This document shows positions 11,121 to 61,160 of a stretch of DNA of 64,000 nucleotides, in pieces (the first letter of the stretch is position 1; each line of letters begins with the position of its first letter). The stretch comes from Narcine bancroftii (lineage: Eukaryota): positions 157,356,001-157,420,000 of the forward strand of contig NC_091470.1 of the NCBI RefSeq assembly GCF_036971445.1. The letters are read 5' to 3'. The position numbers and the translations under genes were made by a program. Under the pieces are notes generated by a model that had not been told where the DNA came from, did not search any database, and saw only the letters and a program-made list of their open reading frames with translations.

Positions 11121-11570
11121 TCTTTGGCTTGGCTTCGCGGACGAAGATTTATGGAGGGGGTAAAAGTCCACGTCAGCTGCAGGCTCGTTTGTGGCTGACA
11201 AGTCTGATGCGGGACAGGCAGACACGGTTGCAGCGGCTGCAGGGGAAAATTGGTTGGTTGGGGTTGGGTGTTGGGTTTTTCCTCCTTTGCCTTTTGTCAG
11301 TGAGGTGGGCTCTGCGGTCTTCTTCAAAGGAGGTTGCTGCCCGCCAAACTGTGAGGCGCCAAAATGCACAGTTTGAGGCGTTATCAGCCCACTGGCAGTG
11401 GTCAATGTGGCAGGCACCAAGAGATTTCTTTAGGCAGTCCTTGTACCTTTTCTTTGGTGCACCTCTGTCACGGTGGCCAGTGGAGAGCTCGCCATATAAC
11501 ACGATCTTGGGAAGGCGATGGTCCTCCATTCTGGAGACGTGACCCATCCAGCGCAGCTGGATCTTCAGCA
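11121..11570 (-). mobile_element. RTE-clade LINE, 5'-truncated copy 1
   Basis: Encodes [10 protein letters not shown]...[21 protein letters not shown]-terminus; near-identical to other copies; no clear TSD. Confidence 0.95.
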
Positions 11571-15218: not shown

Positions 15219-15580
15219 GTGGGTCGATAGGTTATTTGGCCATTCTAAATTGACCCCTTTGAGTAGGTAAGTGGTAGAATCCAAAAGGGTTGTTGGGAAT
15301 GTGATGAGAACAAAATGGGATTGTGTGATCTTGTGAGGATAAAGGGCCTCTTTATTGATGTATGAGTTTACCATTCTATGAATTGTACAAATGCCTCGAG
15401 GAGATAGTAGTGATTGACTTATTTAGGTCTAGAACTCAGATGGAGCCTCAGACATTCATTGCAGTAGAGACAAGAACATAATGAAAGGATAATAATGCTG
15501 TTTTTGAGCTTTACTAGTTATGCATTTCCAAACTGATTAATGAAGCAAACCTTGGGAAAAGCTGGTTGAATGTTCCTTAA

Positions 15581-17199
15581 CTGCCTCAGGATCTTCGTGA
15601 TGCCACCATCATCACCCTGTGCAAAAACAAAGGCGAGAAATCAGACTGCTCAAACTACAGGGGCATCACGCTGCTCTCCATTGCAGGCAAAATCTTCGCT
15701 AGGATTCTACTAAATAGAATAATACCTAGTGTCGCCGAGAATATTCTCCCAGAATCACAGTGCGGCTTTCGCGCAAACAGAGGAACTACTGACATGGTCT
15801 TTGCCCTCAGACAGCTCCAAGAAAAGTGCAGAGAACAAAACAAAGGACTCTACATCACCTTTGTTGACCTCACCAAAGCATTCGACACCGTAAGCAGGAA
15901 AGGGCTTTGGCAAATACTAGAGCGCATCGGATGTCCCCCAAAGTTCCTCAACATGATTATCCAACTGCACGAAAACCAACAAGGTCGGGTCAGATACAGC
16001 AATGAGCTCTCTGAACCCTTCTCCATTAACAATGGCGTGAAGCAAGGCTGTGTTCTCGCACCAACCCTCTTTTCAATCTTCTTCAGCATGATGCTGAACC
16101 AAGCCATGAAAGACCCCAACAATGAAGACGCTGTTTACATCCGGTACCGCACGGATGGCAGTCTCTTCAATCTGAGGCGCCTGGAAGCTCACACCAAGAC
16201 ACAAGAGAAACTTGTCCGTGAACTACTCTTTGCAGACGATGCCGCTTTAGTTGCCCATTCAGAGCCAGCTCTTCAGCGCTTGACGTCCTGCTTTGCGGAA
16301 ACTGCCAAAATGTTTGGCCTGGAAGTCAGCCTGAAGAAAACTGAGGTCCTCCATCAGCCAGCCCCCCCACATCTCCATCGGGCACACAAAACTCAAAACG
16401 GTCAACCAGTTTACCTATCTCGGCTGCACCATTTCATCAGATGCAAGGATCGACAATGAGATAGACAACAGACTCGCCAAGGCAAATAGCGCCTTTGGAA
16501 GACTACACAAAAGAGTCTGGAAAAACACCCAACTGAAAAACCTCACAAAGATAAGCATATACAGAGCCGTTGTCATACCCACACTCCTGTTCGGCTCCGA
16601 ATCATGGGTCCTCTACCGGCATCACCTACGGCTCCTAGAACGCTTCCACCAGCGTTGTCTCCGCTCCATCCTCAACATCCATTGGAGCGCTTTCATCCCT
16701 AACATCGAAGTACTCGAGATGGCAGAGGTCGACAGCATCGAGTCCACGCTGCTGAAGATCCAGCTGCGCTGGGTGGGTCACGTCTCCAGAATGGAGGACC
16801 ATCACCTTCCCAAGATCGTGTTATATGGCGAGCTCTCCACTGGCCACCGTGACAGAGGTGCACCAAAGAAAAGGTACAAGGACTGCCTAAAGAAATCTCT
16901 TGGTGCCTGCCACATTGACCACCGCCAGTGGGCTGATATCGCCTCAAACCGTACATCTTGGCGCCTCACAATTTGGCGGGCAGCAACCTCCTTTGAAGAA
17001 GACCGCAGAGCCCACCTCACTGACAAAAGGCAAAGGAGGAAAAACCCAACACCCAACCCCAACCAACCAATTTTCCCCTGCAGCCGCTGCAACCGTGTCT
17101 GCCTGTCCCGCATCGGACTGGTCAGCCACAAACGAGCCTGCAGCTGACGTGGACTTTTACCCCCTCCATAAATCTTCGTCCGCGAAGCCAAGCCAAAGA
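15581..17199 (+). mobile_element. RTE-clade LINE, 5'-truncated copy 2 (frameshifted)
   Basis: RT motifs ([20 protein letters not shown]); 20-bp deletion near 16362; perfect 42-bp TSD (15539-15580 / 17200-17241). Confidence 0.97.
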
Positions 17200-18742
17200 A
17201 ATGAAGCAAACCTTGGGAAAAGCTGGTTGAATGTTCCTTAATTTGGGGAAGGTGCATGGCACTAAAAAGGGAAATCTAATGTAATTAAAAAGATATTGCC
17301 ACAAAACATGAAAAACAATTGAGGTGAAGGGCAACTTTCTGCTAGGTCTCAGCTCTGTCAAAAGTCTAATGTTGTGTTGTTTTCTATTAGTAAATCCTAT
17401 TAAAATGGTGGGCCTGCAGGCTCAGCCACATTCATTATTCCCTAGTTATTCAAGTATGTTGATGTAGCGAATACATATACATATATGTGAATGTATTCTG
17501 TACATATACATGTACACAAGAAACACCAAATACAGTCCAAGTGTCCAGAAGCTGAGATGTACATATGGAATGCAGGGATTCAAAACCAGCTTATGAATAT
17601 ATGAGCAGGAAATTTGTACATTGGTTTAGCTACCACAGTAGAGTGTTGCCCCACTTTAAAGAATGTGAAGATCTAAGGCAAGGTACAAAAACCATTACTA
17701 GAATAGTTCCAAGCTTGAGTGATATGAATGGAGAAGCTCTTGTGGGAACAAAATAGATTGACAAGTGCTTTGATTGAGATGATGCAAGATTATGACTGGT
17801 TTATAAACTAAGGAACACAGATTTAACATTCTGGAGCAAGATACTAAAAAAGGTTGAGGGAAGGAAAAGTTTGTGCCTCACTACCCACAGAGTGGTGAAA
17901 ACAGGATTGGTGTCTTTAGACAAGAAATAGGTGGACACTGGAGAAAGCTTATACTCTGAAATAAAATTTAAGAAAAGAATTTAAAAAGATGTATCAGAAT
18001 TTGTAAAAGTTCAGGCCCCAATTATGAGAAAAGTGTGGGAAATTAGACTGATGGAAATATCCTGTAAGGAGTTGAGATACAGTAGATGGACATGTTGTGT
18101 CCTATTGGAAGAGCTGATTGAATCTCTAAAATACCAATCTAAGTAGAAGGCAGAAAACAGAAAAATGAATTTACAAACATGGTCCCAAAGGAGGGTGTCC
18201 TAATGTATTTGATAGGCATGGGAGCTGATCTGGGCTCCATTACATCTTCAAGAATGCATGGGCTGCAGTAATGTGGGGCCTAGATTACAGGTCTAAGAAC
18301 ATGAGCTTGAATCCAAATAAAATTTAGGACTTAAAAAATACCATGCAAGTTGAAGCTTCCACAGTGTCACTGCTATTCTTCCTTGCTGTATGTGTGACTC
18401 CAGGCCCCCTGCTGTGGCTAACACTTCATACCTTCTCAGTCTAAATGGAAAATAATGGATGCATAACACTTCAACAGGGAGCATAGGGCACATTTATGGG
18501 GGAATCATGGACTGAAACCATAAAATGTTTTCATGTCATCGGAAGGAGAAAAATATAGAAGAAACCAACTAAATGACACTGCTTCACAGGGAAGAAGGTT
18601 CATAAACTTTGACTAGAGTCTGAAGGAGGCTATTGCCCCCCAAAAAAGTTGAAAACCACTTCACTGGACCACAGTCCAACTTACCTTACTTAATCTATTG
18701 CAGGTGCTGATCCCAAGATTCAAGGATCCAAAGGCAAAGAGA

Positions 18743-19675
18743 ATGGAATTTCGGAGTTCAGTCCAGCTCATCATTTATGGTATTCTGGTGTTTCTGGGGA
18801 TTCTAAGCAATTTGCTGGTGTTGGTGACCATATTAGCCACAACTGTAGAACACCATGGCCTGGCACCTTTTGACATCATTCTTGCCAACTTTGCAACTGT
18901 CAACCTACTGATTTGCACATTTCGAAACATCCTATTGTTTATTTCAGAGTTGGGGGTGAAAATTTCCCTCACCCTTAACTGGTGCAGAGTGTTCATGTTC
19001 CTTTGGTTGTGGCTAAAGTGCGTTAGCGTCTGGGTCACTTTTTGTCTCAGTTGCTTCCATTTTCTGAAGATAAAACAACATTTGCATCTGAGCACAAGGA
19101 TGAAGGAGATCTTCACTGTGATTAAGCTATTATCTGCAGTATGGCTTGTTAATTTTCTGTACTCCATTCCAGCTTTTATTTACACTGAGAAGGTTAGCAT
19201 GAATCACACCAAGAAGCTCATGCTGGTCAGTACCACCGATGAATCTTTCCTAACCTGTTCCTTGAAGTTCCCCACTAGGCAAGACGGTCTCCTATTTATA
19301 GCTGTATCTCTTATCCTGCATGAATTTCTTCCCATTGTCCTAATGATTTGCACCAATGTCAGCACCGTGCATTATCTCAACCAGCACATCAGAGAGATAG
19401 CAGATGATCACCTGCACAGTGTGCAGGTCGAGCGAACAGCAGTGAAGATGATCATGGCATTGGTGTCATTGTTTGTCCTGTGTTCAGGCACACACCTATT
19501 GGCCGTGTACTACTACAATCACAATGAGGGCCCGGCCACTACCTTATTGCTAACTTTAGCTAACTACTGTGCCTCTGTTTTCATTGGTTTCAGTCCCCTG
19601 ATGCTGGCCGCTGGGCACAGTAGACTACGAAATAAAGTGTGTAACGTGTTGCATATTAACATATCAGCAGGTTAA
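18743..19675 (+). CDS. Olfactory receptor class A (ORA/V1R-like), ORA3/ORA4 clade, 310 aa, single coding exon
   Basis: Seven hydrophobic segments; ORA3/4 motifs (RNILLFISELG, WCRVFMFLWLW, HEFLPIVLM, YYNHN, FSPLMLAAGHSRLR); splice-acceptor-like site at 18703 upstream of the ATG. Confidence 0.9.
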   Translation: MEFRSSVQLIIYGILVFLGILSNLLVLVTILATTVEHHGLAPFDIILANFATVNLLICTFRNILLFISELGVKISLTLNWCRVFMFLWLWLKCVSVWVTFCLSCFHFLKIKQHLHLSTRMKEIFTVIKLLSAVWLVNFLYSIPAFIYTEKVSMNHTKKLMLVSTTDESFLTCSLKFPTRQDGLLFIAVSLILHEFLPIVLMICTNVSTVHYLNQHIREIADDHLHSVQVERTAVKMIMALVSLFVLCSGTHLLAVYYYNHNEGPATTLLLTLANYCASVFIGFSPLMLAAGHSRLRNKVCNVLHINISAG

Positions 19676-23253: not shown

Positions 23254-23849
23254 GTTCGGCTCTGAATCTTGGGTCCTCTACTGGCATCACCTACGGCTCC
23301 TAGAACGCTTCCATCCTGTCCTCAACATTCATTGGAGTGACTTCATCACCAACATCGAAGTACTCGAACTGGCAAGAGTCCGCAAGCATCGAATCCACGC
23401 TGCTGAAGACCCAACTGCGTTGGGTGGGTCACGTCTCCAGAATGGAGGACCATCACCTTCCCAAGATCGTGTTCTATGGCGAGCTCTCCACTGGCCACCG
23501 AAACAGAGGCGCACCAAAGAAGAGGTACAAGGACTGCTTAAAGAAATCTCTTGGTGCCTGCCACAATGACCCCCGCCAGTGGGCTGATCTCGCCTCCAAC
23601 CGTGCATCTTGGCGCCTCACAGTTCGGCGGGCAGCAACCTCCTTTGAAGAAGACCACAGAGCCCACCTCACTGACAAAAGACAAAGGAGGAAAAACCCAA
23701 CACCCAACCCCAACCCACCAATTTTCCCTTGCAACCGCTGCAACCGTGCCTGCCTGTCTCGCATCGGACTTGTCAGTCACCAACGAGCCTGCAGCAGACT
23801 TGGACATACCCCTCCATAAATCTTTGTCCGCAAAGCCAAGCCAAAGAAA
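23254..23849 (+). mobile_element. RTE-clade LINE, older 5'-truncated copy 3
   Basis: Same C-terminal ORF, more diverged, with an internal deletion. Confidence 0.93.
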
Positions 23850-26696: not shown

Positions 26697-27059
26697 GGTT
26701 GGAGAGCTGGGCTAGAATTAATTATCTGGATTCTGATTGGAACAGGTTGAAATTGGGGGTCTCTGATCCGACAGTGGGGATGATAAATGAGGGCAGATTG
26801 GAATCAGAGTAGGTTATTACTGAGAGGTAGAAATTGGATTAGGATGATCAATATTAAAGTGGAATATGATTGGAAAAGGGTGGAATTTGAGTAAACCGAG
26901 CAGAGAGAGTGAATTATGATAGGAGGAGGCTTGAATTGGAGTTGGTTGGGTCGAGGCTCATGATTGAGTGGACTATGATTGGAATAGGTTGAGATGCAAT
27001 AGGTTACGAATGGGATAGTTTAAAAGTGTGTCGATGGAGGTCAGGTTGAGGACAAGTTG

Positions 27060-27960
27060 GCACAGGAGCGCATTAAGGTGGGGAGATGAAGCCCGATGAT
27101 TTGGTGCCTACTCAGCGCTGCGGCCCGAGGGGTGGGCTCTGCTACTTCCCGGCGGCCATCCAGCAGCCTGCCGGCCTCCGACTGTCTCCGCGGGCCGGTG
27201 GCGAATCGCCTCGAGACCACCCCACCCCCCCCCCCCCCCCAACCAGCTTTCGACACCACTCGCTCCGAGAACCCCCCTCCCCCGGGACGGCGATTGGACA
27301 GGTCGAGGAGGCGGATCGGGGCCTGCGAGCGACGGAGTCCTCTGGCGGGTAACACCAGCACGCAAGCCCGGGGTTTCGAACGTGGCTTTAGGCCTCACTC
27401 GCCGCTTTGGAAAGAATAAAATTGAGCAGCCACTCTTACTGCGTCAAAAGCCTCTCACAATGGGGAGTGTGGCGCTCACGGTGTCTGCTGTATCCTGTGC
27501 AATAGTCACCCACCTGCTGAGCCAATAACTTATTTTCTTTCCCCCTCCCCCCCCCCTCTCTCCAGATCCTTTCGACGTGAGCGGAGTGCGAGCCTCGGTC
27601 AACCCCGTCTCGTCCTTTGCCCTGTGCGGCCTCCGGGTCGGGCTCTGTCCGTCACCATGGTGACGCGGCGCCCCCTGTCTCCTTGAGGCGGCCCCCTCCC
27701 GTCCCGCCCGCCGGCCCCCCGTCCCGCCCGCCTTGGTGAGCCATGTCCAGGAAGCAGGCGACCAAAGCCAGGCACAACAAGAAGCTGGAGGTGGAGCGGA
27801 AACGGGACGAGAGGGCGGCGAGACGAGCCGTGGCGAAGGAGAGGAAGAACAGGAGCCAGGGTGGTGCTGAGGATGAGGAGTTCGTCAGCTTTGCCAACCA
27901 GCTGTTAGCCATGGGGCTCCGGCTGCGGGAGGTGCCTGGTGATGGGTAAGGAAGGTGCTG
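27060..27960 (+). promoter_or_regulatory. CpG island / OTUD3 promoter and 5' region
   Basis: GC- and CpG-rich stretch in AT-rich surroundings; GC boxes, inverted CCAAT, X-box-like palindrome; overlaps the first coding exon. Confidence 0.85.
27743..27945 (+). CDS. OTUD3: OTUD3 coding exon 1
   Basis: [10 protein letters not shown]...FVSFANQL...LREVPGDG; donor GG|gtaag. Confidence 0.95.
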
Positions 27961-30900
27961 GGCAAAACTCTGGCCCACCAGAGCCAAAGCACCAATTCAT
28001 TTTGTTCTCTCTTGACCTGTACCCTGAGGCTTCTTAATGGTACTTTAATTCCTTGTTCATCCTCTTATGGAGAACTAGCAATAGCAATAGGCAGGAGGAA
28101 CATTGGTCGACCCCAGCTTGGCTTCAAGGACTTCAGCAAGTGAGACCCAAGCCATAAAAATCAACACAGAGGGCTGGGAGGGTACAGAGGATGACTGCCA
28201 CAAACGGCGAGGTATCATCAATGCCTAGAGCAGGGGTGGCCAAGCCACCGCTCGCGAGCAACATGCGGCGTTTTGACCTGTAATGCGTGGGAGGGGAGGT
28301 GTGGGGAGTTGGGTCGCCGGCTGATTGTCATCAGCCTGCCCCCGGCTAGCCGCTTTCAGGTGCCTAGGGGGAGCACTCAGAAGCAGGGAATATACCTCCC
28401 CGAGTTGGGTTGAGTAAGTACACCTCGGGGATGAGTTCTCCCCTTTCAGGTGGCCTCCCGACAGCAGCATTCGGGTATCTTAGGCGGTTTTACATTCGGG
28501 TATTATGGCCACCTGAGAGGGGCTAACGATAGTGTTAGTTGGTGTGGCTTGTGATTGCTACGGCTCTCAAACATCTGAAGTTTATGGTATGCGGCTCTTA
28601 CGTTAAGCAAGTTTGGCCACCCCTGGCCTAGAGCAAGGAGGAAGAGTGATCTTGAGTCAGTTTGAGGAGTGGAGAGCTAAGTGAAGAGCACAGGAGACAA
28701 CAATTCAACGATGCCCTATATTTGCAGCAGAGTAAATGGCAGAGCCTGCCATTCCAGGATTGGCCTCCATAGCCACAGTCGACATTGCTAAACAAACCGG
28801 AGGGACCATCCTCATGGTTGATCATAACCCACAGAGGCCAAGAAGTACACCTTGACTTCAGTCCACTTGTTAATTTTATCTCTTGACCTGCACACTGATG
28901 TTTCTTAATGGAAGCAAAACACAAAAGTCTGCAGACCCTGTGATTGAAATAAAAACCGGTTGGAGAAACTCAACTGGTGTACTTTATATAGCAAAGATAA
29001 AGATACTTAATCATTGTTTTGGACATGTCCTTCATCCAAGTACCTTAATACCTCATGAAGAGCTCAAGCCTGAAACATTGGTCATGTACACTGTTTGACC
29101 TTAATGGTAGATTGTCACTTTAATTTCTTGTAGCTTACACCTTGACTCTAGTCCAGTTGGTAATTTTAAAAAAATCTCTTGACTGGTGCTTCTTATTAGT
29201 AGTAAATAAACAAAATTGCAGGATAAACTCTGCAGATCCTGCAACGACCTTAGGTGGCAAACATTTTGGGCTCAGGCCTGAAACGTTAGTTATATAATCT
29301 TTACCTCCTATGGATGCTGCAGGACCTCCTGAGTTTTTCCAGGAATTTTTTTGTATTTTACTACAATCACGGCATCTGCAGACTTTCTTGTTTCACTGCT
29401 TCACTTTGATTCCTTGCATATAACACATGTCCATTTGTGGAAGGTCAAGATCCTAAATCCTTTACGAATACTTGGCAATTATTCAAGTGCTGAAAGAGTT
29501 AATGCTGCTTCTTCTACACGCAGTGACTGAATGAATTGTGATTTGCTAGGATTATGAAGATGGTCATTGGAAATTAGCATCTTGGGTTTAAATTTCCCAG
29601 ACCATGAGAATTTTGTCTGCCAACTGCAGATTTCTGAGAAAGCAGATTTGTGAACCCAGTTGTACAAATTGTTATTTTGAAAACTTGAAAATGGTGAGTA
29701 CTTCAAAGTATTGTGGAAACAGCTGAACAGAAGTTGAGACTGAATAGTTTCTATTTTAGATTACAATAAAATACTAAAAACAGTTTCAAAAACAAAGTCT
29801 GGTTTTTTTTTCAGAATTTTAAATTTTATTCTTGATTTCCAGATACGGCTGTATTTTTCTGTTTTATTTTCAGTAGTGGTAGAGTCTAGGACCAGTGTTC
29901 ACAGTATCAGAATAAAAGAATATCCCTTTAGAACAAAGATAAAAAGAAATGTCTTTAGGATGATTAATCTGTGGAATTGGTGGTGTCCAGGTCATTGGGT
30001 ATATTTAAAGCAGAAGTTGCTAGGTTCTTGATTAGTAAGGATTTCTTTCAAAGGTTATGGGGAAAATGCTGTGGTGAGGGAAAAATACATCTGCCATGAT
30101 TTGAATTGTGCAGCAGACTTGATTAGCAGAATGGCCTTATTCTGCTCTTGGTCTTCTACAGTGAGAGAGCTTTATGAATGCAACTTGTAGATTCTAGCTG
30201 GGTGATCATGCAGAAACATTCCTGCCTCTGAGTTCCTTGTAGGTCACTGAATTGCATTTTTGAGTATTTCTTTGAGTGCAGTACATCCTGTGGTTCATTG
30301 TGACAGTCTGGTAAAACCTGGCCAGAATTCGTGGGTGTTGTATCCTCTTGAAAAATTCTGCAATTGCTGAAATACTTCAAAATGTACCTATTAGAACTCA
30401 CTTTTTTTTTAGCAAGTCCATTCTGTTCATGTTGTTGTGCTAGTAGTAATGTGGCCAGCTACTCTTACCAATTGCTCTTTTTAATTAACTTACACTTTGT
30501 TTTAAATATCCATATTGATCAATGATAAGAAAAAATACAATAAGACAAAGGTTTTTTTGTCAATTATTTTACAAATTGGCTTGTTTGTTTTGAGGTTTTG
30601 GAAGAGACAGATTACAGTGGGCAACAATTTTTTTCAAAAGATTTTCATCCTAAAAAAAAACAAAAGAGGGTTATGATGGATATCTTCAGGATAATTTCAG
30701 ATTTGCTGTATCGCATAGGAAGTTGAAATTTTATGCAACATTTTATTGAACTTAGCATGTTTAATCGCATAATGTACCTCTGAGCCAAGCTCTCAGGTTG
30801 ACTGCATGTTTGGCTTGTCACCAATTTTGCAAACATAGAGTTCATAGGCTTTCTTAATAAGTGCAGTCATGATGTGTCTTTGAGCCTGAAGCATATATAC

Positions 30901-33900
30901 TCCCCACAAATGTAACAGAATACATAGCAGCCGTTGAGACATTTCTGAGGTATTGAATCTTCCTGAAGACAATAAATACTATTGTTAAGTCTTCTTTTTC
31001 TTTGGCTTGGCTTCGCGGACGAAGATTTATGGAGGGGGTAAAAAGTCCACGTCAGCTGCAGGCTCGTTTGTGGCTGACCAGTCCGATGCGGGACAGGCAG
31101 ACACGATTGCAGCGGTTGCAAGGGAAAATTGGTTGGTTGGGGTTGGGTGTTGGGTTTTTCCTCCTTTGCCTTTTGTCAGTGAGGTGGGCTCTGCGGTCTT
31201 CTTCAAAGGAGGCTGCTGCCCGCCAAACTGTGAGGCGCCAAGATGCACGGTTTGAGGCGTTATCAGCCCACTGGCGGTGGTCAATGTGGCAGGCACCAAG
31301 AGATTTCTTTAGGCAGTCCTTGTACCTTTTCTTTGGTGCACCTCTGTCACGGTGGCCAGTGGAGAGCTCGCCATATAATACGATCTTGGGAAGGCGATGG
31401 TCCTCCATTCTGGAGACGTGACCCATCCAGCGCAGCTGGATCTTCAGCAGCGTGGACTCGATGCTGTCGACCTCTGCCATCTCGAGTACCTCGACGTTAG
31501 GGGTGTGAGCGCTCCAATGGATGTTGAGGATGGAGCGGAGACAACGCTGGTGGAAGCGTTCTAGGAGCCGTAGGTGGTGCCGGTAGAGGACCCATGATTC
31601 GGAGCCGAACAGGAGTGTGGGTATGACAACGGCTCTGTATACGCTTATCTTTGTGAGGTTTTTCAGTTGGTTGTTTTTCCAGACTCTTTTGTGTAGTCTT
31701 CCAAAGGCGCTATTTGCCTTGGCGAGTCTGTTGTCTATCTCATTGTCGATCCTTGCATCTGATGAAATGGTGCAGCCGAGATAGGTAAACTGGTTGACCG
31801 TTTTGAGTTTTGTGTGCCCGATGGAGATGTGGGGGGGCTGGTAGTCATGGTGGGGAGCTGGCTGATGGAGGACCTCAGTTTTCTTCAGGCTGACTTCCAG
31901 GCCAAACATTTTGGCAGTTTCCGCAAAGCAGGACGTCAAGCGCTGAAGAGCTGGCTCTGAATGGGCAACTAAAGCGGCATCATCTGCAAAGAGTAGTTCA
32001 CGGACAAGTTTCTCTTGTGTCTTGGTGTGAGCTTGCAGGCGCCTCAGATTGAAGAGACTGCCATCCGTGCGGTACCGGATGTAAACAGCGTCTTCATTGT
32101 TGGGGTCTTTCATGGCTTGGTTCAGCATCATGCTGAAGAAGATTGAAAAGAGGGTTGGTGCGAGAACACAGCCTTGCTTCACGCCATTGTTAATGGAGAA
32201 GGGTTCAGAGAGCTCATTGCTGTATCTGACCCGACCTTGTTGGTTTTCGTGCAGTTGGATAATCATGTTGAGGAACTTTGGGGGACATCCGATGCGCTCT
32301 AGTATTTGCCAAAGCCCTTTCCTGCTCACGGTGTCGAAGGCTTTGGTGAGGTCAACAAAGGTGATGTAGAGTCCTTTGTTTTGTTCTCTGCACTTTTCTT
32401 GGAGCTGTCTGAGGGCAAAGACCATGTCAGTGGTTCCTCTGTTTGCGCGAAAGCCGCACTGTGATTCTGGGAGAATATTCTCGGCGACACTAGGTATTAT
32501 TCTATTTAGTAGAATCCTAGCGAAGATTTTGCCTGCAATGGAGAGCAACGTGATTCCCCTGTAGTTTGAGCAGTCTGATTTCTCGCCTTTGTTTTTGTAC
32601 AGGGTGATGATGGTGGCATCACGAAGATCCTGAGGCAGTTTACCTTGGTCCCAACAAAGCTTGAAAAACTCATGCAGTTTGGCATGCAGAGTTTTGCCGC
32701 CAGCCTTCCAGACTTCTGGGGGGATTCCATCCATACCTGCTGCTTTGCCACTTTGTCACCTTACAAAGCCGTCCTGTCCAGAGAAAAAACAAGCCTTCCG
32801 TCGCGCATGCAGCCATCTTCAGCGCAAACTCCGGGAGATCCAAAATGAGTGGTGGACTAGCCTCGCCAAACGAACACAGCTCAGCGCGGACATTGGCGAC
32901 TTCAGGGGTTTCTACGAGGCTCTAAAGGCTGTGTACGGCCCCTCACCCCAAGTCCAAAGCCCGCTGCGCAGCTCAGACGGCAAAGTCCTCCTCAGCGACA
33001 AGATCTCCATCCTCAACCGATGGTCAGAACACTTCCAATCTCTTTTCAGTACCAACCGCTCAGTCCAAGATTCCGCCCTGCTCCAGCTCCCTCAACAGCC
33101 CCTAAGGCTAGAGCTGGATGAGGTTCCCACCCTGGATGAGACATATATTGTTAAGTACAGTATTGTTAAGTACACTTTTGCCCTTCTGGGTGGAACTAGG
33201 CCAATCCCGGGGGAAAAAGTCAAGGGTAAAGAATTCCCACAGGACAAAGCTGTTCTTCTTGGGAAGTATGATGGACATGAGGCTTGAATCCAATTTGTAA
33301 TGATCGCATTGGTAGTGGCCAGGAAGTGCATACTGGTTACCTGGAAATCTGAGTCCAACTTGGGCATTGCGTGCTGGAATATGGAAATGCAAAGCTGTTT
33401 TTCCCTGGAGAAAATTACCTATAACTTGAGGAAAAATATAACATTTTTCTAAGAATTTGACAACTATATTTAAATTTCATAGGAGCATAGTTATTCTGTG
33501 GATCTCACTGCCCTCCCTTCCCCGTCTATCCTACTGGGGGAGGAGACATCTATTCCATCCCAATCAAGTAAGTCAAGAAAAATGTAACAGCTGAGGTCAG
33601 GCCCTGATGTGTTCCATACCTTTGTGGTTGTCTTCAATGTTGTGAATAATTGTGGTCTGTTGTGTGTGGGGAGGGGGGAGAAATTGCTCTGACTCAACAG
33701 TGAATTTTGTATCTAATGGCTAACTGTAATTTGTGATTACTGGAAATTGAGTTTGAAAATCTATAAGCAAAAGAAACACTATTGCCTGAAAAACGTGCAT
33801 CAACATGCATTCAATCTATGTCATTGTAATGCACAGCATCTGTAGATGTGAGCTGCTTTTATAGCCTGTCTGCATTTATCCTGACGAAGCATGCCCAGGC

Positions 33901-56109: not shown

Positions 56110-56225
56110 AGTCGATTGGATCTTATCAGGTCGAACTTTTAGCCTATTATACAAGTTACACATTAATGCAATGCAATAAAACTTTTGATCAGGAACAACC
56201 TACCCCAAAGATTTATAAATAGCGA
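56110..56225 (+). promoter_or_regulatory. Putative RNF186 proximal promoter
   Basis: GATA CTTATCA (56122-56128), HNF1-like GTTACACATTAAT (56155-56167), CDX-like GCAATAAAA (56173-56181), TATAAATA (56214-56221). Confidence 0.6.
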
Positions 56226-56289
56226 TGGGCTGCAGACGGGATCAGTCCCGAACAAGCTAGTCTTCAGGGTGTTTCTCCATCGTCCCAGC

Positions 56290-56928
56290 ATGGAGAAAAA
56301 AGATGGTGTAAGTACCTCGGGGTCCGAGCTTGACTGCCCGATTTGCTTTAACAAGTATGAACTTTTCATCCGAAAGCCCAAACTCCTGAGCTGCCAGCAT
56401 TGCTTCTGCGCGATCTGCCTGAAGATCATGGTGTCTCAGCAGGACGGCTCTTGGGGGGTGGTCTGCCCGCTGTGCCGGCGCAACACGGTGGTGATAGACG
56501 CGCTGATCAGCAACCTGCCGGACCACCCGAGCCTGATGGAAGTCCTGCCCAGGAGGATGTCGACCTTCCCCGATTCCGTGCCGGAGATTGTGCTGTCGCC
56601 GGACTTGCTGGTGCAGACCCAACCCAGTACCCTCACCCTGTTCACGCATGTTAATGAAACCAACCGCTCGGCGGATGATGAGGGTGGACCTTTCAGGAAT
56701 CGGGTCACTGTGTCAGCCATCCGCCGCTTTCTGATGACCATGATCTTTTTCCTGGTCCTCTTGTATGGACTTCAGTATTTCTTCAATAACCCAACTCTGA
56801 TCTGGATCCTCGTTATACTGACTGTTCTGTGTTCATTGACGGGACTGGTTCTTCTGTACTTCACCTGCCAGGAGTCCAGGACCGGCGGCGAGACAAGGAG
56901 ATGCTGGAACCCCCTTTCTTTATTCTAA
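56290..56928 (+). CDS. RNF186: RING-HC E3 ubiquitin ligase with two C-terminal TM helices, RNF186-like, 212 aa, intronless
   Basis: CPIC...PKLLSCQHCFCAICLK...WGVVCPLCR matches the RNF186 pattern; good Kozak AGCATGG; OTUD3 is its neighbour, as in human. Confidence 0.85.
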   Translation: MEKKDGVSTSGSELDCPICFNKYELFIRKPKLLSCQHCFCAICLKIMVSQQDGSWGVVCPLCRRNTVVIDALISNLPDHPSLMEVLPRRMSTFPDSVPEIVLSPDLLVQTQPSTLTLFTHVNETNRSADDEGGPFRNRVTVSAIRRFLMTMIFFLVLLYGLQYFFNNPTLIWILVILTVLCSLTGLVLLYFTCQESRTGGETRRCWNPLSLF

Positions 56929-60082: not shown

Positions 60083-61160
60083 CAGTGGTTTTCAAACTTT
60101 TTCTTTGCATTCACATCTTTGGCTTGGCTTCGCGGACGAAGATTTATGGAGGGGGTAAAAAGTCCACGTCAGCTGCAGGCTCGTTTGTGGCTGACCAGTC
60201 CGATGCGGGACAGGCAGACACGATTGCAGCGGTTGCAAGGGAAAATTGGTTGGTTGGGGTTGGGTGTTGGGTTTTTCCTCCTTTGCCTTTTGTCAGTGAG
60301 GTGGGCTCTGCGGTCTTCTTCAAAGGAGGCTGCTGCCTGCCAAACTGTGAGGCGCCAAGATGCACGGTTTGAGGCGTTATCAGCCCACTGGCGGTGGTCA
60401 ATGTGGCAGGCACCAAGAGATTTCTTTAGGCAGTCCTTGTACCTTTTCTTTGGTGCACCTCTGTCACGGTGGCCAGTGGAGAGCTCGCCATATAATACGA
60501 TCTTGGGAAGGCGATGGTCCTCCATTCTGGAGACGTGACCCATCCAGCGCAGCTGGATCTTCAGCAGCGTGGACTCGATGCTGTCGACCTCTGCCATCTC
60601 GAGTACCTCGACGTTAGGGGTGTGAGCGCTCCAATGGATGTTGAGGATGGAGCGGAGACAACGCTGGTGGAAGCGTTCTAGGAGCCGTAGGTGGTGCCGG
60701 TAGAGGACCCATGATTCGGAGCCGAACAGGAGTGTGGGTATGACAACGGCTCTGTATACGCTTATCTTTGTGAGGTTTTTCAGTTGGTTGTTTTTCCAGA
60801 CTCTTTTGTGTAGTCTTCCAAAGGCGCTATTTGCCTTGGCGAGTCTGTTGTCTATCTCATTGTCGATCCTTGCATCTGATGAAATGGTGCAGCCGAGATA
60901 GGTAAACTGGTTGACCGTTTTGAGTTTTGTGTGCCCGATGGAGATGTGGGGGGGCTGGTAGTCATGGTGGGGAGCTGGCTGATGGAGGACCTCAGTTTTC
61001 TTCAGGCTGACTTCCAGGCCAAACATTTTGGCAGTTTCCGCAAAGCAGGACGTCAAGCGCTGAAGAGCTGGCTCTGAATGGGCAACTAAAGCGGCATCAC
61101 ATACCACCTTAAGTAATCCCTTACTATCATAGAGTGGAAAGAAAAGTTTGGAAACTACTG
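60083..61160. mobile_element. Short hAT MITE (CAGTGGTT family) split by RTE copy 5
   Basis: cagtggttttcaaac ... gtttggaaactactg; halves match 26367-26696. Confidence 0.75.
60117..61096 (-). mobile_element. RTE-clade LINE, 5'-truncated copy 5
   Basis: Open ORF 60169-61096; almost identical to copy 4; 6-bp TSD TCACAT (60111-60116 / 61097-61102). Confidence 0.96.

What the first reader, a model, noticed from the sequence alone, without database searches (positions are those of the whole stretch)
30980..33156. Twin-priming-type 5' inversion in an RTE (non-L1) retrotransposon
Seen: the 3' part runs on the minus strand from [14 protein letters not shown] to the tail (32754 to 30991). The segment that should precede it (HLTKPS...[11 protein letters not shown]) is inverted on the plus strand (~32755-33145), with its sense 3' end against the TSD. 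One 11-bp TSD encloses both parts, and both are open reading frames. Only a few codons seem to be missing at the breakpoint (inferred from typical RTE sequence). Known: this geometry defines twin priming, which is characteristic of mammalian L1 and considered rare in other LINE clades. Inference: this RTE can twin-prime.
Basis: partly seen in the sequence, partly recalled or inferred. Interest (0 to 1): 0.7.

Follow-up and report, generated by a model that had tools for sequence, protein, structure and literature searches.

The report
RTE retrotransposon family that routinely twin-primes
This dead copy of a very young, very abundant jumping gene has its front 390 bases flipped between matching target repeats, as do about one in seven sampled copies of its family, likely because both cut DNA ends start copying the same RNA, a habit documented mainly for mammalian LINE-1.

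Summary
Against intact genomic copies, 32756-33145 is the upstream segment inverted, 18-20 nt are lost, one extra base sits at the inner joint, and 2 nt of microhomology join the flipped piece to the 11-bp TSD.

The inversion is not a one-off. Of 166 copies sampled by their 3' end on one chromosome, 23 (14%, CI 9-20%) are 5'-inverted. All 23 have an 8-14 bp TSD, both joints show excess microhomology, and the cut-site signature is the family's own.

No inversion occurs with a forward part under about 620 nt (0 of 78 versus 23 of 88, p=1e-7). The genome's fish-type L1 also inverts (4 of 70), three times closer to its 3' end than that.

Twin priming by the element's own protein is inferred (about 0.85). 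Read support for the joints was inconclusive, and RTE membership rests on architecture, not a tree.

The scan had already noted RTE 5' inversions in this and other genomes. The rate, the 3' exclusion zone and the L1 control are not in the notes I saw.

The parts
30980..30990 (+). Target-site duplication, copy at the element's 3' end (TATTGTTAAGT; ACTTAACAATA in element sense)
30991..31003 (-). GAA-rich microsatellite-like tail, no poly(A)
   Evidence: same tail type in other copies
31004..31054 (-). Stop codon (31054-31052) and short 3' UTR; a 30-mer from here has 57,082 exact matches in the genome
31055..32754 (-). Forward (first-primed) part: 3' half of the single ORF with the reverse transcriptase domain; identical to copy L064 over 1755 nt
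32755..32755 (.). Inner inversion joint: one extra base that matches neither part; 18-20 nt of the element are missing between the two parts
32756..33145 (+). Inverted (second-primed) part, 390 nt, from the linker between endonuclease and RT; 100% identical to 39 other places
33146..33147 (+). 2-nt microhomology (TA) shared by the element RNA and the end of the target DNA
33146..33175 (+). Two tandem 15-nt copies of the target end, each with the 11-bp TSD (33146-33156, 33161-33171); one is probably extra sequence made during insertion (inferred)
33181..33597 (+). Old multicopy repeat fragment in the flank (73-82% identical to other copies), L1-like by my reading of its translation; not part of the insertion

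Best explanation
This is a 5'-truncated, 5'-inverted insertion of a young single-ORF RTE-type retrotransposon, likely made by twin priming with the element's own endonuclease and reverse transcriptase. Shown: the structure, TSD, subfamily identity, joints, and that 23 of 166 sampled copies share it. Inferred steps: (1) The endonuclease nicks the first strand at a T|A step downstream of a T-rich stretch, and the freed end primes cDNA on the GAA tail. (2) A second nick 11 bp away frees a 3' overhang. Here the overhang was probably extended by a 15-nt copy of its own end, then paired with the RNA through TA about 1.78 kb from the 3' end and primed a second cDNA of 390 nt. (3) The first cDNA stopped 18-20 nt short of that site. 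(4) The two cDNA ends were joined by host end-joining with one extra base, and second strands were filled in. Second priming appears unable to occur in the last ~600 nt of the RNA, most likely because the second nick or the release of its overhang comes only after several hundred bases have been copied, or because that RNA stretch is protein-bound (inferred, untested). The copy lacks the endonuclease and is dead.
For: Window copy. Family: 12 of 100 copies in sample 1 and 11 of 66 in sample 2 are inverted. A TSD of 8-14 bp encloses both parts in 23 of 23 inverted copies, against 56 of 138 simply truncated copies (p=1e-8; 13 of 13 versus 19 of 41 among young copies) and 23 of 600 shuffled pairs. 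This fits a need for an intact overhang, as reported for L1 (PMC4245944, sections 12 and 16). Microhomology of 2 nt or more is found at 12 of 17 outer joints and 11 of 15 inner joints that have no extra bases (p<=3e-5 against a two-sided chance model). The two parts meet within 20 nt in 11 of 23 copies; 16 have a gap and 7 an overlap, as for L1 (PMC12016303 section 8). The cut site is T|A in 19 of 22 inverted and 31 of 40 truncated copies with TSD of 9-16 nt, none starts with AAAA, and median TSDs are 12 and 11. Among 29 long copies, 9 (on contigs C5, C8 and C9) also carry an opposite-strand piece.
Against: No biochemical or cell evidence. No long reads; short-read contigs of the likely source sample gave no listed piece bridging the joints, and none at 33166-33300 at 100% identity, so the read test is inconclusive. 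6 of 23 outer and 8 of 23 inner joints carry extra bases and were left out of the microhomology tests. 3 of 23 inverted copies have gaps of 466-1309 nt, which also fit template-jumping variants. Both 3'-end samples come from the first 31 Mb of one chromosome, and sample 2 was selected for a longer GAA tail. RTE-clade membership was not tested by a tree with named references.
Confidence: 0.86

Rival explanations
1. One long cDNA was made from a single primer, broke or was cut during integration, and its 5' piece was re-ligated upside down by microhomology-mediated end joining.
For: Frequent extra bases and flank-derived duplications at the joints show heavy host repair. Microhomology is also an end-joining signature (established knowledge).
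Against: 7 of 23 inverted copies repeat 6-131 nt of the element in both parts, which needs two copying events. All 23 keep a full TSD, as expected if the unresected overhang was used as a primer.
Confidence: 0.07
2. The RTE RNA was inserted in trans by the L1 machinery of the same genome, so the twin priming is L1's.
For: A fish-type L1 is present (894 exact matches of a 3' 42-mer) and itself inverts in 4 of 70 copies.
Against: Inverted RTE copies have the same T|A cut site, T-rich upstream stretch, 11-12 bp TSD and GAA tail as truncated RTE copies, with no poly(A) and no AAAA-starting TSD. The L1 inserts sit at A-run sites with A tails. The L1 copies are older (about 89-97% to a reference copy) than this insertion (100%).
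Confidence: 0.03
3. Two independent insertions head to head, or a later inversion inside an existing copy.
For: The family is very dense (57,082 matches) and adjacent copies occur (for example L201 and L224).
Against: One TSD encloses both parts. The parts are nearly contiguous in the element, and the inverted part has no tail. The outer break lies at or within a few bases of the TSD in every inverted copy.
Confidence: 0.02
4. Assembly artefact inside a high-copy repeat.
For: The joints were not seen bridged in the listed short-read contigs.
Against: A misjoin would not give matched TSDs, non-random microhomology, a sharp length threshold and a distinct breakpoint in each of 23 copies. Both flanks match contigs of the run without differences. 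One 151-nt contig of depth 2 from another organism's run matches 33140-33290 exactly (possibly carry-over, weak).
Confidence: 0.02

Closest known systems
5'-inverted (twin-primed) human and chimpanzee L1 insertions (model of Ostertag and Kazazian 2001, not held; seen as described in passages of PMC2912911, PMC12016303, PMC5668948 and bioRxiv 2024.08.27.596794)
   Same: Inverted upstream segment plus forward 3' segment inside one TSD, microhomology at both joints, a small gap or overlap at the inner joint, full-length TSDs, and a similar frequency: 14% here (26% of copies with a forward part of 600 nt or more) against 18.2% (PMC5668948), 18.4-21.9% (PMC12016303) and 30.9% (PMC2912911).
   Different: Single ORF without a separate ORF1, GAA tail instead of poly(A), T|A target with 11-12 bp TSD, non-mammalian host. 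No forward part is shorter than 623 nt, whereas the median forward part in human L1 is 253 bp somatic and 571 bp germline (PMC12016303). The 590-bp depleted zone reported for human L1 lies at the 5' end (PMC5668948), not the 3' end.
RTE-clade LINEs (BovB, AviRTE and aquatic relatives)
   Same: One ORF of about 3.4 kb with AP endonuclease and RT, very short 3' UTR (AviRTE: ORF about 3.2 kb, 3' UTR about 40 bp, PMC4844689 passage), microsatellite-like tail, TSD of 10-12 bp starting with A, T excess about 10-14 nt upstream (PMC6007223 passages).
   Different: I found no report of frequent 5' inversion for this clade in ten full-text searches. The key survey (Ichiyanagi and Okada 2008) and Kojima and Okada 2009 were not held.
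Single 5'-inverted insert of zebrafish Nimb-2_DR in chicken DT40 cells (PMC4245944, section 12)
   Same: A non-L1 LINE producing a 5' inversion.
   Different: One event in a heterologous assay; here it is a standing 14% of sampled natural copies.

Membership tests
Twin-primed (5'-inverted) LINE insertion | Inverted segment comes from the RNA upstream of the forward segment and abuts it | tested here: met
   Reference copy positions 2402-2793 inverted, body from 2812
Twin-primed (5'-inverted) LINE insertion | One TSD encloses both segments | tested here: met
   11 bp; 23 of 23 inverted relatives
Twin-primed (5'-inverted) LINE insertion | Microhomology between target end and RNA at the outer joint | tested here: met
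   2 nt here; 2 nt or more in 12 of 17 relatives without extra bases, p<=2e-5
Twin-primed (5'-inverted) LINE insertion | Microhomology at the inner joint | tested here: inconclusive
   This copy has one extra base and no exact overlap; family-wide 11 of 15 have 2 nt or more
Twin-primed (5'-inverted) LINE insertion | Second cDNA primed by the element's RT at the second nick | not testable with these tools
   Needs a retrotransposition or in-vitro TPRT assay
RTE clade | Single ORF with AP endonuclease and RT, no separate ORF1, no RNase H | tested here: met
   Intact copy L061: one 1150-codon open frame, PF03372/PF14529 plus PF00078 only, tandem-repeat 5' region with no other ORF over 150 aa upstream
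RTE clade | Short 3' UTR ending in a microsatellite-like tail; TSD of 10-12 bp starting with A | tested here: met
   criteria from passages of PMC6007223
RTE clade | RT phylogeny groups with named RTE elements | not tested
   No RTE-labelled reference sequence was returned by the tools; the 120 listed homologues are unnamed or hypothetical proteins, best 78% identity
L1 clade | Two ORFs, poly(A) tail, close similarity to L1 ORF2p | tested here: not met
   29% identity over 204 aa to this genome's L1 ORF2; human ORF2p scores no better than R2 proteins (E about 1e-18); single ORF, GAA tail

The most novel reading that the evidence does not exclude
Twin priming is a routine property of an ORF1-less, non-poly(A) RTE retrotransposon. 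It accounts for roughly 8,000 inverted copies in this one genome (14% of 57,082, extrapolated from one chromosome end) and obeys a rule unlike human L1: the second primer never lands within the last ~600 nt of the RNA. [quoted passage not shown]
Probability: 0.6. Interest if true: 0.68.

Novelty: new variant of a known kind. Interest (0 to 1): 0.55.

Why it matters
5' inversion has been treated as depending on features of L1 and of human cells (PMC4245944). A single-ORF LINE that does it at near-L1 frequency in a non-mammalian vertebrate indicates that neither a separate ORF1 protein nor a poly(A) tail nor a mammalian host is needed. It favours overhang length (11-12 nt is enough) as the limiting factor. 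With tens of thousands of near-identical copies, this genome is a large natural dataset for the timing of second-strand nicking, and the 600-nt exclusion zone makes that timing testable. In practice, repeat annotation will split such copies in two and overcount insertions.

Tried and rejected
Read support: short-read contigs of four runs at 95% and two at 100% listed no piece bridging the inner or outer joint, and none covered 33166-33300 at 100%. The tool warns that holes prove nothing, so this is inconclusive. No long-read run was offered.

Empty-site test for the 15-nt tandem repeat: homologues of the flanking old repeat start only at about 33181 and do not cover the target site. Whether the repeat pre-existed is unresolved. 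Similar flank duplications at the 5' joints of truncated copies (L085, L140) favour creation during insertion.

Missed micro-inversions as the cause of the 600-nt zone: scanning 136 truncated copies for short antisense matches at the joint found one 16-mer (L139, forward part 998 nt, not counted among the 23). The rest matched the control.

RNA structure as the cause: the last 620 nt fold no better than shuffles (z=-1.17).

Correlation of forward and inverted lengths: none (rho 0.19, p=0.39, n=23).

My recalled '590-nt rule at the L1 3' end' was wrong; the paper places it at the 5' end.

RTE versus L1 inversion rate in this genome: 23 of 166 versus 4 of 70, p=0.08, not significant.

One row of the cut-site table (L176) picked a tail repeat instead of its TSD and was left in the count.

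Atlas and PDB searches gave no clade label. A sequence look-up in earlier findings returned nothing. No young CR1 or L2 family was sampled as a short-TSD control.

Full report
Observation. The stretch 30980-33175 holds, on the minus strand, 1.76 kb of a non-LTR retrotransposon from 32754 to a GAA-rich tail at 30991. It is open in one frame and has an RT domain. On the plus strand, 32756-33145 is a second open piece. A search of the own genome found this piece 100% identical at the 39 other places among 40 candidates scored, and in these it lies directly upstream of the body on the same strand. The piece is therefore inverted here. Twenty bases lie between the two parts in intact copies; two of them (TA) coincide with the start of the TSD, so 18-20 nt are lost. 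One extra base sits at 32755. The body is identical to copy L064 over 1755 nt, so both parts come from the same youngest subfamily.

The element. An intact copy (L061) has one open frame of 1150 codons with AP-endonuclease and RT domains, a tandem-repeat 5' region and a 3' UTR of about 50 nt. It is 29% identical over 204 aa to this genome's L1 ORF2 and no closer to human ORF2p than to R2 proteins. Its nearest homologues are unnamed single-ORF proteins of about 1050-1100 aa, up to 78% identical, some from amphioxus. Tail, TSD length and target signature match published RTE traits (PMC6007223, passages; PMC4844689, passages). A tree with named RTE references was not possible, so 'RTE' rests on architecture. 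A 30-mer of the 3' UTR has 57,082 exact matches in the 3.3-Gb genome. Earlier notes of the scan call the host a ray; I did not test this.

How common is the inversion? Sample 1 was the first 100 listed matches of that 30-mer (contig C1, 1.8-6.2 Mb): 12 of 100 are inverted. Sample 2 was the first 72 of 7,080 matches of a pattern with a longer GAA tail, minus 6 already in sample 1 (C1, 2-31 Mb): 11 of 66 are inverted. Pooled, 23 of 166 are inverted (14%, 95% CI 9-20%). One further copy has a 16-nt antisense stub and was not counted. Among the 29 long copies fetched, 9 have an adjacent opposite-strand piece, on contigs C5, C8 and C9. TSDs of 11-16 bp were seen in the 8 of these 9 that my script could orient. 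The other four RTE copies in the window show single forward matches. For human L1 the published rates are 18.2% (PMC5668948, passages), 18.4% germline and 21.9% somatic (PMC12016303, passages and section 8) and 30.9% (PMC2912911, passages).

Footprints of mechanism. All 23 inverted copies have one TSD of 8-14 bp around both parts. Only 56 of 138 truncated copies (5 near-full-length ones left out) have a TSD of 8 bp or more, and only 23 of 600 shuffled flank pairs reach 8; the contrast holds among young copies (13 of 13 versus 19 of 41). Among joints without extra bases, microhomology of 2 nt or more is found at 12 of 17 outer and 11 of 15 inner joints, against 16-22% expected (p<=3e-5). Six outer and eight inner joints have extra bases, some copied from nearby sequence. 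Sixteen copies have a gap and seven an overlap at the inner joint; overlaps need two copying events. Inverted and truncated copies share a T|A cut (19 of 22; 31 of 40), a T-rich stretch 12-14 nt upstream and median TSDs of 12 and 11, and none starts with AAAA. This points to the element's own endonuclease rather than L1 acting in trans.

An exclusion zone. No inverted copy has a forward part under 623 nt: 0 of 78 copies below 600 nt against 23 of 88 above (Fisher p=1e-7; p=4e-4 in each sample alone). The nearest second-priming site is 581 nt from the 3' end. Missed micro-inversions and RNA folding do not explain it. Human L1 does not show this in the data I read: the median forward part is 253 bp somatic and 571 bp germline (PMC12016303), and the 590-bp depleted zone is at the 5' end (PMC5668948).

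Control. Of the first 70 of 894 copies of the genome's fish-type L1, 4 are inverted with TSD-like repeats of 8-17 nt, and three have forward parts of 301-480 nt. Inversion in this host is thus not confined to RTE (rates 14% versus 6%, p=0.08), but the 3' exclusion appears to be. These L1 copies are older and the sample is small.

Mechanism. Shown: structure, frequency, TSD retention, microhomology, cut site. Inferred, by the L1 model as described in PMC2912911 and bioRxiv 2024.08.27.596794 (passages): first nick and priming on the tail; second nick 11 bp away; the 3' overhang pairs with the RNA through TA and primes a second, opposite cDNA; the two cDNAs are joined by host repair. The 15-nt duplicate is more likely an insertion-time extension than a pre-existing repeat, but homologous repeats do not cover the site. 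I favour a delay of the second nick or of overhang release as the cause of the exclusion zone; this is untested. Rivals (broken and flipped cDNA, L1 in trans, two insertions, misassembly) each fail on at least one footprint. Read support was inconclusive.

Literature and novelty. PMC4245944 (abstract and sections 3, 12, 16 read) found 5' inversions only with human L1 in human cells, apart from one Nimb-2 insert, and argued that short overhangs cannot prime. Ten full-text searches listed no paper that reports 5'-inverted RTE copies. Term look-ups showed only reference-list mentions or none in PMC6007223, PMC5389967, PMC2718515, PMC3747384, PMC13295347, PMC4844689 and PMC13367326. PMC4476161 (passages) describes twin-primed chimeras for L1 only. 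bioRxiv 2024.12.14.628481 (passages) calls second-strand nicking poorly characterised. No supplements were read. Ostertag and Kazazian 2001, Ichiyanagi and Okada 2008 and Kojima and Okada 2009 were not held and could contain earlier counts. The scan has noted RTE 5' inversions before (12 findings in at least 6 genomes, several in this one); these are unchecked notes and not support, and the lines shown gave no sampled rate.

Verdict. A real twin-priming-type insertion, an ordinary member of a family in which such inversions are common. A new variant of a known mechanism; interest 0.55.

Noticed in passing
window 18653-19672 (+): Intronless 340-codon GPCR frame matching 7tm_1 (2e-15) and TAS2R (1.6e-13) in Pfam; possibly a bitter-taste or orphan receptor gene.
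   Followed up: partly
window 56167-56925 (+): Intronless-looking RING-finger (C3HC4) frame, probably an E3 ligase exon.
   Followed up: partly
window 27001-28500: GC-rich island (63% GC), probably a promoter about 3 kb from the insertion.
   Followed up: no
window 11121-11570, 15579-17200, 23254-23848, 60116-61099: Four more 5'-truncated copies of the same RTE family (87-99.6% to the reference copy), none with an inverted piece.
   Followed up: partly
L233, L239, L255, L292: 5'-inverted copies of a fish-type L1 in a non-mammalian genome, with TSD-like repeats.
   Followed up: partly
L061:1212-1700, L063:718-1700: The RTE 5' region is a variable stack of GC-rich tandem monomers of about 169 nt, followed by a 15-nt minisatellite in the start of the ORF.
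   Followed up: no
L106, L155, L073: Short RTE copies joined to a piece of their own 5' region, skipping 1-3 kb, which suggests template jumping along the RNA.
   Followed up: no
L085, L140, L134 5' joints: Truncated copies carry short duplications of flank sequence as extra bases at the 5' joint, and about half of young truncated copies lack a TSD of 8 bp or more.
   Followed up: partly
window 33140-33290: A 151-nt, depth-2 contig from a run of another organism (X5) matches this stretch exactly; likely carry-over between libraries.
   Followed up: no
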